Assembly (NCBI GenBank): GCA_038893995.1
Contig: JAWAQK010000001.1
Coordinates: forward strand, 32,001 to 96,000
DNA: 64,000 bases
From: Candidatus Thorarchaeota archaeon
GTDB lineage: Archaea > Asgardarchaeota > Thorarchaeia > Thorarchaeales > Thorarchaeaceae
Direction: 5' to 3'
Program-made: the position numbers and the translations under genes
Notes under the pieces: generated by a model
What the model was told of the DNA's origin: nothing
Databases searched by the model: none
The model's input: only the letters and a program-made list of their open reading frames with translations
Part shown: piece by piece, positions 5,044-9,202 of the stretch
Numbering within the stretch: the stretch's first letter is position 1
Layout: each line of letters begins with the position of its first letter

Positions 5044-5886
5044 ATGTCACTGCCATCCTCGAGCGGTCTCGAACTTGCTGCAGAGGTACTAAGGGGGAGA
5101 CGTGTGCTTGTCGCCTTCAGTGGGGGCCTCGACAGCTCAGTGCTTGCGGTACTTGCGAGAGACCATGCCGAGAGAGCGGTACTACTGACTGTAGATACGC
5201 CTCTGATATCCGAGGAAGACAGGCTCAATGCAGTCCGAGTGGCACGCGAACTTGGAATGGAACATCTCATTGTGAGTGTTGACTGGCTCCAAGATGATGA
5301 GTTGACCCAGAACAGCAGGGATCGCTGCTACCGGTGCAAGAAGAAACTGGCAAGAATATGGCTCGACGAGGCCGCAAGACTCGGACTTGACATGGTCGTA
5401 GAGGGCACAAGCGCCACCGACATGGCATCGTTCAGACCAGGAGAGAGAGCACTCAGAGAGTTGGGCGTGGAGTCTCCCTTTCTGCGTGCTGGTGTGACAA
5501 GGGCGTCAATCAGGGAGTTTGCAGAGAGGGTGGGACTCTCAGTTGCAGACCGGCCATCGAGCGCCTGTCTCGCTACAAGAATACCCTACGGAGCAAAGGT
5601 CACACTAGACAGGTTGAGAATGATTGAGAGGATGGAGGACTTCATCAGGACCGAGTTCGGAGTCAGGTGTGTCAGAGCGAGGTATCATGGGGACCTTGTC
5701 CGAATCGAGATCGGTGTCGACGAGATGGAGAAGGTGCTCGAACGTTCGATACTGAACAGGATACACGTCATGGCGAGAGGACTCGGATTCGAACATGCTG
5801 CACTGGATGCGGGCGGGTATCGCTCAGGCTCATTTGACGAGTCGAGTCCTGATCCTGGCGACCTCATGGCTAGTGATGACGGATAG
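5044..5886 (+). CDS. larE: ATP-dependent sulfur transferase LarE ([4Fe-4S]-type Cys pattern)
   Basis: PP-loop AFSGGLDSS, DRCYRCKK, RPG, SSACLATRIPYG, VRARYHG, GYRSGS. Confidence 0.9.
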   Translation: MSLPSSSGLELAAEVLRGRRVLVAFSGGLDSSVLAVLARDHAERAVLLTVDTPLISEEDRLNAVRVARELGMEHLIVSVDWLQDDELTQNSRDRCYRCKKKLARIWLDEAARLGLDMVVEGTSATDMASFRPGERALRELGVESPFLRAGVTRASIREFAERVGLSVADRPSSACLATRIPYGAKVTLDRLRMIERMEDFIRTEFGVRCVRARYHGDLVRIEIGVDEMEKVLERSILNRIHVMARGLGFEHAALDAGGYRSGSFDESSPDPGDLMASDDG

Positions 5887-5998: not shown

Positions 5999-6247
5999 GT
6001 GATTGATGTGTCAGCAAGACCCAATGAGGTGCTGGACTGCACGGGGCTATATTGTCCACAACCTCTCTTTCAGACCAGGGAGGCGTTGAACAAGATTGCC
6101 GTCGGGGAGATTCTTGAGGTCCTGGCTGACGATCCAGCCGCGGAGGAAGACATCAAGAGGCTCGTGAAACGCACGGGTCAGGAGATGGTCGGGCTGGAGA
6201 AACTGAAGGATGGAGTGATCAGGTTCCTAATCCGAAAGATACACTAG
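5999..6247 (+). CDS. tusA: TusA-family sulfur carrier
   Basis: LDCTGLYCPQPL, EVLADDPAAEEDI. Confidence 0.9.
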   Translation: MIDVSARPNEVLDCTGLYCPQPLFQTREALNKIAVGEILEVLADDPAAEEDIKRLVKRTGQEMVGLEKLKDGVIRFLIRKIH

Positions 6248-6252
6248 GAGGA

Positions 6253-6612
6253 ATGTGGGTGGCGACGATACTTTATGTACAGACAAGTGACGATCCAGAG
6301 AGGCAATACTCGCCCCTAGTACTGGCTCAGACTGCAAAGATGATGGACATCCGACCTATCATATATTATCTAGGACAGGGTCTCAGAGTACTGAGAGAGG
6401 AGACTGCAAAGAACCTAAGAGTTGGATCGTTTCCGAGCCTGTACGAGATGCTGAAGAAGACTCTTGAGATGGGAATTGACATCTATGTGTGTGAGGCCTC
6501 AAAGCAGATGCTGGGCTGGACCAGCGTCCAGTTGATGGAGGGCCTCAAGATAGTCGGGGCGGGAACACTTAATGATCTGTCGCTAGAGGCCGATGCGACA
6601 ATGTGGTTCTGA
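6253..6612 (+). CDS. DsrE/F-family sulfur-transfer protein
   Basis: YYLGQGL, GIDIYVCEAS, GAGTL; size and operon context. Confidence 0.8.
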   Translation: MWVATILYVQTSDDPERQYSPLVLAQTAKMMDIRPIIYYLGQGLRVLREETAKNLRVGSFPSLYEMLKKTLEMGIDIYVCEASKQMLGWTSVQLMEGLKIVGAGTLNDLSLEADATMWF

Positions 6613-6629
6613 GAAGAGGAGGTCTTGGC

Positions 6630-7808
6630 TTGCCTAATCTATACTTCGACTATCATTCGTCAAAACCGACTGACCCCAGAGTCGTGGACGCAATGATTCC
6701 CTTCTTCACTGAGAAGATTGGAAACCCATCCTCTCTTCACAGAGTTGGCGATGAGGCCACTGAAGCACTTGAGGCGAGCCGCAAGAACATTGCCGACTAC
6801 ATACACGCAGAACCTGACGAGATCGTGTTCACATCCGGAGCGACAGAGTCGAATAACCTCGCGCTGATTGGTTATGCTCTCCGTAACAAGAAGAAAGGAA
6901 GCCATGTGATAATCTCCGAAGTGGAACACATATCTATCATGAACCTGGCCAAGAGCCTCACCTCAATGGGCTTCCAGGTGACAAGAGTGCCTGTCGATCA
7001 ATACGGCATGGTCCTCCTGGACAAGTTGGAGAGAAGGATACGAAATGACACAATCCTCATCAGCGTGGGATATGCCAGTAACGAGATTGGGACAATACAG
7101 CCAATCAGAGAGATCGGTAAGATCGCTGCTGAGAGAGGGATAGCATTCCACACCGACGCTGTTGCCGCTCAGGGCCTCCTCGAACTGGATGTCAGACGGG
7201 ACAACATCAATCTGATGACTCTGTCCTCGAACGACTTCTATGGTCCCAAGGGCCTTGGCATCCTCTACATGCAGAAGGGATACAGAGTCAACCCGATCAT
7301 CATTGGCGGCGGACAAGAGAGAGGAATAAGATCCGGTACAGAGAACATCCCCGCAATTGTTGGAATGAGCGTGGCGGTAGACATTCTCAGGAAGGAGATG
7401 GAGTCCGAGGTCAGGAGGTTCAGGGCATACCACAGACGCATAACTGAGAGCGTACTTAGCCAGGTTCCATATAGCTACCTCAACGGGCATCCTGAGCAGA
7501 GGCTTGCCAGCAACTCTCATTTCAGGTTCGATGGTATAGAGGGAGAGGCAATACTACTCTCTCTCAAGGACAAGGGAATTTCTGTATCAACCGGATCTGC
7601 ATGCACGTCCAAGACACTTGAGCCATCCCATACACTGATAGCCACAGGTCTCATTCACGAGGAGGCGCACGGCAGTCTACAGATAACGACAGGTCGATTC
7701 AACAGGGATGACGAGATTGATATTCTAATAGAGGCGATACCGGAAGTCATCAGCAGGCTTAGGTCATTGTCCCCGATCTACTTACAGAGGAGAGTGAAGA
7801 CAAGATGA
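6630..7808 (+). CDS. iscS: IscS/NifS-family cysteine desulfurase homologue with PLP Lys replaced by Asp
   Basis: FTSGATESNN, NEIGTIQP, HTDAV, GGQERGIRSGTEN, STGSACTS; LSSNDFYGPKG instead of SxHKxYGPKG; TTG start after GGAGG. Confidence 0.92.
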   Translation: MPNLYFDYHSSKPTDPRVVDAMIPFFTEKIGNPSSLHRVGDEATEALEASRKNIADYIHAEPDEIVFTSGATESNNLALIGYALRNKKKGSHVIISEVEHISIMNLAKSLTSMGFQVTRVPVDQYGMVLLDKLERRIRNDTILISVGYASNEIGTIQPIREIGKIAAERGIAFHTDAVAAQGLLELDVRRDNINLMTLSSNDFYGPKGLGILYMQKGYRVNPIIIGGGQERGIRSGTENIPAIVGMSVAVDILRKEMESEVRRFRAYHRRITESVLSQVPYSYLNGHPEQRLASNSHFRFDGIEGEAILLSLKDKGISVSTGSACTSKTLEPSHTLIATGLIHEEAHGSLQITTGRFNRDDEIDILIEAIPEVISRLRSLSPIYLQRRVKTR

Positions 7809-8584
7809 AGTCAACCCAGTATTCGGAGAAGGTCCTGGACCACTTCAGGAATCCCAGAAACGTTGGGGTCCTGGAGGGAGACGACGTCGCAGTAGGACGC
7901 GTAGGCAATCCCGTCTGTGGTGACCTGATGGAGGTCTTCATACGGGTCAAGGACGACAGAATCGTGGATGCCAAGTTCAGGACGTTCGGATGTGGCTCCG
8001 CAATAGCGAGCAGTAGCATGACGACGGAGCTCGTTAAGGGAATGACCCTGGATGAGGCCATGAAAGTGACCCGAGAGGACGTTGCGACGGAGCTCGATGG
8101 CCTCCCGCCGATCAAGATGCACTGTTCAAATCTTGCTGCTGATGCGTTGCACGAGGCGATAATGAACTACAGGAGGGCTCACGGCCAGGCCGGCAGCGCG
8201 GACTCAGTCAGTGAAGTCACGACACCCAGGTGCATTGTGGGGAAGGAGCAGTACTTGGGTAAGGGTGTATACACATCGGTCGATGACGTGAAGGCATTCT
8301 CAGGGAAGAGAGTAATGGTGCTCCACACCGGTGACCAGTCACTCATGGCAGCTCTTGAGATCGCTAACGAAACGTCGCGGGTCATCATCGTGACCCCAGA
8401 GTCTGAGATTCATACCTCCGAGGAGATAGGAGCGAGGCTTGAGGACCCGAGAATCAAGATAATATACGAGTCCAGGCTTGCGGAGATAAGGGGCGAGGAC
8501 GAGGTAGAACGCGTGCTCATACATGACGAGAACGAGGACGAGGATCATGAGATCTTCGTGGATGCCGTTGTAATCATAGAATAG
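7805..8584 (+). CDS. iscU: IscU/NifU Fe-S scaffold fused to a degenerate thioredoxin-reductase NAD(P)-binding-like domain
   Basis: YSEKVLDHFRNPRNVG, GNPVCGD, FGCGSAIAS, KMHCSNLA; C-terminal ~115 aa resembles the TrxR middle domain. Confidence 0.88.
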   Translation: MKSTQYSEKVLDHFRNPRNVGVLEGDDVAVGRVGNPVCGDLMEVFIRVKDDRIVDAKFRTFGCGSAIASSSMTTELVKGMTLDEAMKVTREDVATELDGLPPIKMHCSNLAADALHEAIMNYRRAHGQAGSADSVSEVTTPRCIVGKEQYLGKGVYTSVDDVKAFSGKRVMVLHTGDQSLMAALEIANETSRVIIVTPESEIHTSEEIGARLEDPRIKIIYESRLAEIRGEDEVERVLIHDENEDEDHEIFVDAVVIIE

Positions 8585-8773: not shown

Positions 8774-9202
8774 GTGTCAAGGACCAGGCAGGGCGACTTC
8801 ATAGACATCCTCATGGTAGGCCAGAGAGGATCCTACAGGACAAGGGAACTCCTGTCGAGACTAGATTACGCGCTCACACCTGAGAACATTGGGAAGATGA
8901 CCGTCAAGAGAATTGTAAAGATGCCAGAAGTCACTCAGGTGGCGTACATAGTCGGTGACGAGAGCCACTATACGTGTGGCAGCGACGAGCCTCTCGTGGT
9001 CCCAGGGATAACACCAGAACTGCTGCTGAGGACGATAGAGATCATCGCCAGGTGCAGCTCGGAAAATCAGCATGTCAGATCGGTGGTGTTGTTGACTGAC
9101 AGACTGAACCGCAGTATAGAGCGATACACAGAGCAGTTCTTTTCAATCGCGCAGCATCTCGGAGTAAGCTGTACTGAAAGATGGTATGTGAGACCAGCAT
9201 AG
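8774..9202 (+). CDS. Hypothetical protein
   Basis: 142-aa ORF with GGAGGT SD upstream; no motif recognised. Confidence 0.6.
   Translation: MSRTRQGDFIDILMVGQRGSYRTRELLSRLDYALTPENIGKMTVKRIVKMPEVTQVAYIVGDESHYTCGSDEPLVVPGITPELLLRTIEIIARCSSENQHVRSVVLLTDRLNRSIERYTEQFFSIAQHLGVSCTERWYVRPA

What the first reader, a model, noticed from the sequence alone, without database searches (positions are those of the whole stretch)
6630..7808. IscS lacking the PLP Schiff-base lysine (SSND)
Seen: LSSNDFYGPKG where desulfurases have SxHKxYGPKG, while the catalytic-loop Cys (STGSAC) is retained. Known: Archaeoglobus fulgidus IscS has the same Lys-to-Asp change, lacks desulfurase activity and contributes a Cys ligand to the IscU cluster. 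Inference: sulfur here does not come from cysteine via this enzyme but from sulfide or persulfide carriers.
Basis: partly seen in the sequence, partly recalled or inferred. Interest (0 to 1): 0.7.

Follow-up and report, generated by a model that had tools for sequence, protein, structure and literature searches.

The report
Lysine-less IscS in sulfur-carrier operon
This Asgard-archaeon gene is a further member of the known Archaeoglobus-type "dead" cysteine desulfurase (aspartate replaces the cofactor-binding lysine), and it sits in a conserved operon with two sulfur-carrier proteins that hint at where its iron-sulfur scaffold gets sulfur.

Summary
The gene at 6630-7808 (+) encodes an IscS/NifS-type protein with SSND where desulfurases have SxHK, and it keeps the mobile-loop cysteine (STGSAC).

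Its best solved relative is Archaeoglobus fulgidus IscS2 (E 5e-132), which carries the same SSND and is published as inactive. The change is not an error. All 74 close relatives in genomes and 119 of the 120 nearest database proteins have Asp. They form one clade with no lysine-bearing member, and that clade has also lost two other cofactor contacts (Gln to Ala, His to Asn).

The gene is the third of a tight four-gene operon: TusA, a DsrE-like protein, IscS*, and IscU fused to a degenerate thioredoxin-reductase-like domain. Where flanks were sufficient, 52 of 52 Asp-type genes had TusA within 3 kb, against 4 of 59 lysine-type genes.

Persulfide carriers are indeed encoded next door. However, this genome also encodes a SufS-type desulfurase with both lysine and cysteine, and five other complete carrier genomes each have canonical IscS genes. 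Cysteine therefore remains possible as the ultimate sulfur source.

This scan reached the same reading on other genomes many times. I found no paper describing the carrier linkage.

Verdict: a new member of a known kind, of moderate interest.

The parts
6630..7808 (+). IscS* : lysine-less (Lys->Asp) IscS/NifS-type protein, 392 aa. An alternative upstream GTG start lies at 6603.
   Evidence: Pfam Aminotran_5, E 2.4e-69. Best PDB hit is A. fulgidus IscS2 4eb5/4hvk, E 5.5e-132. It scores below the NCBIfam NifS and IscS equivalog cut-offs. An RBS-like AGAGGAGG precedes the TTG at 6630.
7233..7235 (+). Asp codon at the position of the PLP Schiff-base lysine (D202 in 392-aa numbering; D211 counted from 6603)
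   Evidence: Invariant in alignment A1.
7602..7604 (+). Retained mobile-loop cysteine (C325 in 392-aa numbering; C334 counted from 6603) within STGSAC
   Evidence: Invariant in A1.
5999..6247 (+). TusA sulfur carrier (82 aa) with the D-x-x-G-x-x-C-P-x-P motif. It also has a second, nearly invariant Cys five residues upstream.
   Evidence: Pfam TusA, E 5e-25. Conservation. Found within 3 kb of 52/52 Asp-type IscS genes against 4/59 Lys-type.
6253..6612 (+). DsrE-like protein (119 aa) with a single, invariant Cys (YVCEAS)
   Evidence: Pfam DsrE, E 2e-13. PDB 3mc3 DsrE/DsrF-like, E 8.5e-12. 58-75% identical across phyla. Next to 47/52 Asp-type and 0/59 Lys-type IscS genes.
7805..8584 (+). IscU scaffold (three Cys, Asp, His) fused to a C-terminal domain like the NAD(P)H domain of thioredoxin reductase or FNR. 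The glycine-rich motif is degenerate and no Cys is conserved. Its start overlaps the IscS* stop by 4 nt.
   Evidence: Pfam NifU_N, E 8e-50. TIGR01292 TrxR match to residues 144-257. PDB TrxR/FNR hits, E 4e-8. Conservation. It is the only NifU_N match in the genome.
5044..5886 (+). LarE-like PP-loop ATP-dependent sulfur transferase, 113 nt upstream of tusA. This is neighbouring context and not part of the conserved cassette.
   Evidence: TIGR00268 LarE, 238 bits against a cut-off of 150. Found 2-4 kb upstream only in some archaeal (Thorarchaeota or unclassified) loci and in no bacterial carriers.

Best explanation
The gene encodes an A. fulgidus-type, lysine-less IscS (a MisS-type protein). It cannot form the internal PLP aldimine and so is most likely not a cysteine desulfurase. 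By homology it forms an (IscS*-IscU)2 complex with the IscU encoded immediately downstream. In that complex its retained loop cysteine (C325) acts as fourth ligand of the nascent [2Fe-2S] cluster and/or as a persulfide shuttle. I infer that sulfur reaches this complex as protein persulfide through the two co-transcribed carriers. The DsrE-like protein (one invariant Cys) would pass sulfur to TusA (invariant Cys), which would pass it to IscS* C325 or to IscU. The ultimate source is left open. It could be the genome's separate SufS-type desulfurase, or inorganic sulfur taken in through the YeeE/YedE-TusA pair or as sulfide. Shown here: the sequence features, the homology, the operon and its clade-specific conservation. 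Known from the literature for the A. fulgidus protein: inactivity and the Cys ligand. Inferred: the carrier-to-IscS* transfer and its direction.
For: (1) The end-to-end match to A. fulgidus IscS2 has identical SSND and GSAC motifs. Its inactivity and Cys-ligand role are published (PMC8918507 section 10; PMC7585200 discussion).
(2) Three cofactor-contact positions are changed specifically in this clade: Gln to Ala, His to Asn and Lys to Asp. The rest of the pocket is invariant: H100, D176, T72, S199 and R356.
(3) Constraint is strong, so this is not a decaying gene. Mean column identity is 75% across archaea and bacteria.
(4) The operon is tight. Gaps are 5 and 17 nt, and there is a 4-nt overlap.
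(5) The linkage is specific. TusA lies within 3 kb of 52/52 Asp-type genes against 4/59 Lys-type genes. The DsrE-like gene accompanies 47/52 against 0/59 (Fisher p about 1e-26 to 1e-27; the Asp-type group is one clade, so the events are not independent).
(6) The lysine was lost once. All Asp-type sequences plus three other lysine-less representatives form one clade (support 0.97) with no Lys inside. That clade holds separate Asgard, Actinomycetota and WOR-3/Zixibacteria/Aminicenantes subclades, all of which keep the cassette.
(7) The carrier cysteines are invariant.
(8) This IscU is the only U-type scaffold found in the genome.
Against: The A. fulgidus authors favoured free sulfide as the source (cited in PMC8918507), which needs no carriers. 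Nine of the Asp-type loci have TusA but no DsrE-like gene, so DsrE is dispensable. TusA could equally be an acceptor rather than a donor, as it is in E. coli, where IscS loads TusA. The association statistics rest on one clade, so they show maintenance of the linkage and not repeated independent origin. I could not inspect the A. fulgidus locus itself.
Confidence: 0.6

Rival explanations
1. Free sulfide is the direct sulfur source. IscS*-IscU assembles clusters from Fe2+ and environmental or metabolic S2-. IscS* only stabilises IscU and ligates the cluster. TusA and DsrE-like serve another purpose, for example taking sulfur away for tRNA or cofactor thiolation or buffering persulfide.
For: This was proposed for A. 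fulgidus (cited in PMC8918507 section 10). Sulfide supports the SMS system in anaerobes (PMC12192291), and this genome carries a SufC-SmsB pair. The carriers are anaerobic lineages. The DsrE-like gene is missing from some cassettes.
Against: It does not explain why TusA accompanies 52/52 Asp-type but only 4/59 Lys-type IscS genes. It also does not explain why the carrier cysteines are invariant.
Confidence: 0.2
2. IscS* is still an enzyme. With non-covalently bound PLP or PMP it catalyses a different or partner-activated reaction, for example desulfuration of a carrier-bound substrate or a lyase or transaminase-type half-reaction. The Asp acts as an alternative catalytic residue.
For: Most of the cofactor pocket (H100, D176, T72, S199, R356) and the loop Cys are invariant. 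A. fulgidus IscS still binds PMP or PLP (PMC8918507).
Against: The A. fulgidus protein showed no desulfurase activity (PMC8918507; PMC7585200). Three cofactor-contact residues are lost together in the clade.
Confidence: 0.1
3. The cassette is mainly a sulfur-trafficking hub for thiolation chemistry and not a general Fe-S assembly machine. An IscU-bound cluster or IscS* persulfide would pass sulfur to PP-loop thiolases such as the neighbouring LarE-like enzyme.
For: A LarE-like PP-loop sulfur transferase lies 113 nt upstream here and 2-4 kb upstream in several archaeal (Thorarchaeota or unclassified) loci. In E. coli, TusA serves thiolation pathways (PMC2854127).
Against: LarE is absent from the bacterial and Loki-type cassettes. 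This IscU has every canonical scaffold residue and is the only U-type scaffold in the genome.
Confidence: 0.1

Closest known systems
Archaeoglobus fulgidus IscS2 with IscU (PDB 4EB5, 4EB7, 4HVK; D199K variant 4R5F)
   Same: It has the same IscS/NifS-type fold family, the same SSND motif at the Schiff-base position and the same GSAC loop Cys, and IscU is its partner. The alignment runs end to end, E 5.5e-132.
   Different: The solved A. fulgidus IscU chain is 153 aa, so it lacks the thioredoxin-reductase-like C-terminal domain fused to IscU here. Whether the A. fulgidus genes have TusA/DsrE neighbours could not be tested here. The window's protein belongs to a subclade shared by Asgard archaea and several bacterial phyla.
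MIS (minimal ISC) system, MisS-MisU (Garcia et al. 2022, as summarised in PMC13066941 and PMC12192291)
   Same: An IscS-like gene and an IscU-like gene lie adjacent. No chaperone, ferredoxin or A-type carrier gene was seen in the 7 kb examined.
   Different: MIS is described as an active cysteine desulfurase plus a scaffold with no further components. Here the desulfurase lysine is missing, and two sulfur-carrier genes are conserved parts of the operon.
Methanosarcina acetivorans IscS1
   Same: It is reported to lack the catalytic lysine and is suggested to act like A. fulgidus IscS (PMC7585200 discussion).
   Different: It is uncharacterised: the recombinant protein was insoluble. Its sequence and gene context were not examined here.
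E. coli IscS-TusA and IscS-IscU complexes (PDB 3LVJ, 3LVL)
   Same: The same three protein families are involved. TusA and IscU dock on IscS near the loop Cys (PMC2854127).
   Different: In E. coli an active IscS makes the persulfide and hands it to TusA. Here IscS* cannot make it, so any transfer would have to run from TusA to IscS* or IscU, or not involve IscS* chemistry at all.
DsrE3/DsrE2-TusA sulfur relays of sulfur oxidisers (own knowledge: Metallosphaera cuprina, Hyphomicrobium sHdr systems)
   Same: Small DsrE-family and TusA proteins with single active cysteines are encoded side by side.
   Different: Those relays feed dissimilatory sulfur oxidation (Dsr, sHdr). This one is fixed to an Fe-S scaffold pair. 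The nearest solved DsrE-like protein is 3MC3, at E 8.5e-12 only.

Membership tests
A. fulgidus-type lysine-less IscS | IscS/NifS-type (group I) class-V aminotransferase fold | tested here: met
   PF00266 covers residues 14-375, E 2.4e-69. Full-length alignment to 4eb5_A.
A. fulgidus-type lysine-less IscS | Asp at the position of the PLP Schiff-base Lys (SSND for SxHK) | tested here: met
   Invariant in the clade.
A. fulgidus-type lysine-less IscS | Mobile-loop Cys retained (GSAC) | tested here: met
A. fulgidus-type lysine-less IscS | Encoded next to an IscU with three Cys, Asp and His | tested here: met
   IscU at 7805-8584 overlaps the IscS* stop. It aligns with AfIscU 4eb5_C and other IscU chains.
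A. fulgidus-type lysine-less IscS | No cysteine desulfurase activity; binds PMP/PLP non-covalently; the Cys ligates the [2Fe-2S] cluster on IscU | not testable with these tools
   This needs purified protein. It is known only for the A. fulgidus protein (PMC8918507).
Canonical IscS/NifS cysteine desulfurase | Schiff-base Lys in SxHK, with the flanking His and the Gln that contacts the cofactor | tested here: not met
   K to D, H to N and Q to A, all clade-specific.
Canonical IscS/NifS cysteine desulfurase | Score above the NCBIfam equivalog cut-offs (TIGR03402 NifS, TIGR02006 IscS) | tested here: not met
   453.4 bits against a cut-off of 530.75, and 385 bits against 643.2.
MIS (MisS-MisU) minimal system | Adjacent IscS-like and IscU-like genes without chaperones, ferredoxin or A-type carrier | tested here: met
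   ORFs and Pfam scan of 3.9-9.2 kb. Only this neighbourhood was examined.
MIS (MisS-MisU) minimal system | MisS is the cysteine desulfurase that supplies the sulfur, and there are no further components | tested here: not met
   The lysine is absent. TusA and DsrE-like are conserved operon members. Activity itself was not measured.

The most novel reading that the evidence does not exclude
The TusA/DsrE-like/IscS*/IscU cassette is a distinct Fe-S assembly input module. In it a protein-persulfide relay replaces cysteine-desulfurase chemistry, and the lysine-less IscS has been converted from an enzyme into a persulfide-receiving adaptor and cluster ligand. The module would be old and vertically kept in several Asgard families and shared with anaerobic bacteria through ancient transfer. 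It would answer the open question of how A. fulgidus-type IscS-IscU pairs obtain sulfur.
Probability: 0.4. Interest if true: 0.7.

Novelty: new member of a known kind. Interest (0 to 1): 0.42.

Why it matters
A 2022 review names as open the question of how [2Fe-2S] assembly proceeds on A. fulgidus IscS-IscU without desulfurase activity (PMC8918507).

The conserved, clade-specific linkage to TusA and a DsrE-like carrier gives a concrete hypothesis. It can be tested with four small soluble proteins.

The linkage also shows that the "minimal" MIS picture (desulfurase plus scaffold, nothing else) does not hold for this large subclade. That subclade occurs in about half of the Asgard genomes sampled and in several anaerobic bacterial phyla.

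The lysine-less protein itself is already known, so this gene alone adds a member and not a new principle.

Tried and rejected
1. A. fulgidus gene context. A typed 72-aa fragment copied returned only generic lysine-type IscS loci. These were later reused as the control set. Two back-translated A. fulgidus-specific DNA patterns found nothing in genome contigs. The A. fulgidus neighbourhood therefore remains untested here.

3. Complex prediction with two copies of IscS* plus TusA, both as alignments, scored 0.20 against a mark of 0.32. The verdict was 'no answer' and controls were not run. This is not evidence either way.

5. Literature searches for the carrier linkage found no paper describing it. 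Terms used were TusA+DsrE+IscS+IscU+archaea, Asgard+IscS+IscU+TusA, and MisS/MisU/TusA. The library lacks most subscription journals, including the original A. fulgidus papers and Garcia et al. 2022.

6. Sequencing error or pseudogene: rejected because of invariance across the clade and strong conservation.

7. The 142-aa ORF at 8774-9202 as part of the operon: rejected. It has no family match and no homologue in any related locus.

8. The IscU C-terminal domain as a working NAD(P)H or disulfide reductase: unlikely. The glycine motif is degenerate and no Cys is conserved.

Full report
**The observation**

The ORF listing gives one long ORF at 6603..7808 on the + strand. Its product contains LSSNDFYGPKG and STGSAC. 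Direct translation places the Asp codon at 7233-7235 and the loop Cys codon at 7602-7604.

It is preceded by AGAGGAGG, and the identical 392-aa database protein starts there. Residue numbers below use this 392-aa form: D202 and C325.

**What the protein is**

- It is a class-V aminotransferase of the IscS/NifS type (PF00266, E 2.4e-69).
- It scores below the curated NCBIfam cut-offs for NifS (453 against 531 bits) and IscS (385 against 643 bits).
- Against all PDB chains the best match is A. fulgidus IscS2 (4eb5, 4eb7, 4hvk), at E 5.5e-132 and aligned end to end. SSND lies on SSND and GSAC on GSAC. The next entry, 4r5f, is the engineered D199K mutant.
- The literature held here states that A. 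fulgidus IscS has Asp199 in place of the lysine and binds PMP. It has no cysteine desulfurase activity and was proposed to provide only a Cys ligand for the [2Fe-2S] cluster on IscU. The sulfur source is left as an open question (PMC8918507, section 10).
- M. acetivorans IscS1 is reported to lack the lysine as well (PMC7585200, discussion).

**The change is a fixed clade character**

- Of the 120 nearest proteins in the large protein database (68-100% identity), 119 have Asp at this position and one has Tyr. Where a source name is given, it is Thor-, Hod-, Hermod-, Sif- or Promethearchaeota.
- A scan of species-representative genomes returned 80 loci. Every IscS at 55% identity or more has SSND. 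Seven of the eight at 43-47% have His at the Asn position, with Lys following in four of those seven; the eighth (L088) could not be read.
- Among 150 representatives of 50%-identity clusters, 135 have Lys. Fifteen lack it: four have Asp, and the others have Thr, Gln, Ser, Ala, Pro, Met, Gly or Arg.
- I built a maximum-likelihood tree (FastTree, LG+gamma; 213 sequences, 383 columns). All 74 Asp sequences and three other lysine-less representatives fall in one clade with support 0.97 and no lysine-bearing member.
- Inside that clade, the Asgard sequences (Loki-type and Thor-type) form one group. It is sister to a WOR-3/Zixibacteria/Aminicenantes/Stahlbacteria group, and an Actinomycetota group lies outside both.
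- Comparing the Asp clade with the lysine-bearing set shows four clade-specific substitutions. They are Gln to Ala in the DAxxQ stretch, His to Asn and Lys to Asp in SxHK, and Val to Thr after the Cys loop.
- By established knowledge of E. coli IscS, the first three correspond to Gln183, His205 and Lys206, which contact the cofactor. That mapping rests on my own knowledge and was not tested here.
- The rest of the pocket and the loop are invariant across 43 sequences from archaea and bacteria: H100, D176, T72, S199, R356 and C325. Mean column identity is 75%. The protein is therefore under strong constraint and probably still binds a cofactor, as the A. fulgidus protein does.

**The surroundings**

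The gene is the third of four tightly packed genes on the same strand:

| Gene | Coordinates | Notes |
|---|---|---|
| TusA | 5999-6247 | Pfam E 5e-25 |
| DsrE-like | 6253-6612 | Pfam E 2e-13; nearest structure 3mc3 |
| IscS* | 6630-7808 | the finding |
| IscU fusion | 7805-8584 | start overlaps the IscS* stop by 4 nt |

- The IscU N-terminal 125 residues are a canonical scaffold.
- IscU residues 143-258 resemble the NAD(P)H domain of thioredoxin reductase or FNR. The glycine-rich motif is degenerate and no Cys is conserved.
- The solved A. fulgidus IscU chain is only 153 aa, so it lacks this domain.
- TusA has an invariant Cys in the CPxP motif and a second, nearly invariant Cys five residues before it. 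The DsrE-like protein has a single invariant Cys.
- A LarE-like PP-loop sulfur transferase lies 113 nt upstream (TIGR00268, 238 bits). It recurs only in some archaeal (Thorarchaeota or unclassified) loci and at a greater distance, so it is not part of the core cassette.

**Specificity of the linkage**

I scored all 160 fetched loci with HMMs built from the TusA and DsrE-like alignments. Only loci with at least 1.5 kb on both sides of the IscS gene were counted.

| IscS type | TusA within 3 kb | DsrE-like within 3 kb |
|---|---|---|
| Asp-type | 52 of 52 | 47 of 52 |
| Lys-type | 4 of 59 | 0 of 59 |

Fisher p is about 1e-26 to 1e-27. The Asp-type genes are one clade, so this shows that the linkage has been kept in three deep lineages. 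It does not show that the linkage arose many times.

A DNA pattern for S-S-N-D-x-Y-G-P was searched across a sample of the phylum:

- It occurs in 164 of 301 sampled genomes, and in 61 of 90 high-quality ones.
- By family: 64 of 76 in the window's own family, 61 of 68 and 16 of 19 in two others, and 0 of 28, 2 of 21 and 0 of 11 in three others.
- The reversed-pattern control hit about 13 genomes.

**Other desulfurases and sulfur routes in this genome** (91% complete)

- A SufS-family protein has the lysine (SIHK) and the cysteine (RSGWHC). It scores 411 bits on TIGR01979 (cut-off 475) and is not next to any Fe-S gene.
- A second SufS-like protein has no lysine but keeps the cysteine.
- A more distant class-V aminotransferase and SerC are also present.
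- A SufC-SmsB/SufB-like pair is present.
- No SufE match was found.
- The only IscU is the one in the window.
- Two more TusA genes exist. One is beside another DsrE-like gene. The other is beside a YeeE/YedE-type sulfur transporter and a ferredoxin-like protein.

Five complete carrier genomes (Lokiarchaeum ossiferum, three WOR-3 genomes and one unclassified bacterium) each have the Asp-type gene plus one to three canonical SxHK/GSAC genes. The Asp-type protein therefore coexists with a lysine-bearing desulfurase in six of six genomes examined. Cysteine cannot be excluded as the ultimate source.

**Mechanism**

The best-supported reading is that IscS* is a non-catalytic partner of IscU, as in A. 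fulgidus. Sulfur would arrive as a persulfide on the co-transcribed carriers and pass to C325 or to IscU. Only the sequence features, the homology and the genomic linkage are shown here. Transfer and its direction are inferred.

The main rival is direct use of sulfide, with the carriers serving another role. It explains the anaerobic distribution but not the clade-specific linkage.

A complex prediction for IscS* with TusA gave no verdict and counts neither way.

**Comparison and novelty**

The lysine-less IscS is a published kind, and this gene is a new member of it. The MIS system is described as a desulfurase plus a scaffold with no further components (PMC12192291; PMC13066941). I found no paper reporting the carrier linkage. 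The library lacks most subscription journals.

This scan has reached the same reading on at least fourteen other genomes. My tests were made independently and agree with those notes.

Noticed in passing
window 7805-8584: IscU is fused to a ~115-aa domain like the NAD(P)H domain of thioredoxin reductase or FNR. The domain has lost the glycine-rich motif and has no conserved Cys. It is present in nearly all cassettes of this subclade but absent from the solved A. fulgidus IscU (153 aa).
   Followed up: partly
G000:C2:1146-2366 (L003/L204), outside the window: This is a second, independent lysine-less desulfurase-like protein, of the SufS (type II) kind. It has S-A/G-N-x-G where SufS has S-x-H-K, and it keeps the RSGxxC cysteine. 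The same motifs occur in 12 homologues from other genomes of the same family, and 22 of 25 sampled family genomes have a match. Its neighbours are uninformative.
   Followed up: partly
G000:C48 (L093:369-2388): A YeeE/YedE-type sulfur transporter (PF04143, E 3e-71) lies next to a TusA-like gene and a 4Fe-4S dicluster protein. This is a possible inorganic sulfur (thiosulfate-type) entry route into the TusA network.
   Followed up: partly
G000:C22 (L092:557-1716): A second TusA and a second DsrE-like gene lie near each other on opposite strands, with a 136-aa ORF of no family between them.
   Followed up: no
window 5044-5886: The LarE-like PP-loop sulfur transferase carries a CxxC pair plus a third Cys (SACLATR). 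By my own knowledge this fits the [4Fe-4S]-dependent, non-sacrificial type of LarE and not the sacrificial one.
   Followed up: no
window 5999-6247 and alignment A2: The cassette TusA has a second Cys five residues before the CPxP cysteine. It is conserved in at least 90% of 43 sequences and could act as a resolving or relay cysteine.
   Followed up: no
L190 (bacterium bin44 chromosome) and L120 (Rokubacteria MAG): Further lysine-less IscS-like variants carry other residues (AGQN; GS). The Rokubacteria one also has a TusA neighbour, in line with earlier notes that lysine loss and TusA linkage go together beyond the Asp subclade.
   Followed up: no
Asgard phylum sample: The SSND-type gene is very patchy by family. 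It is nearly universal in three families (64/76, 61/68, 16/19) and not found in others (0/28, 0/11, 2/21).
   Followed up: no
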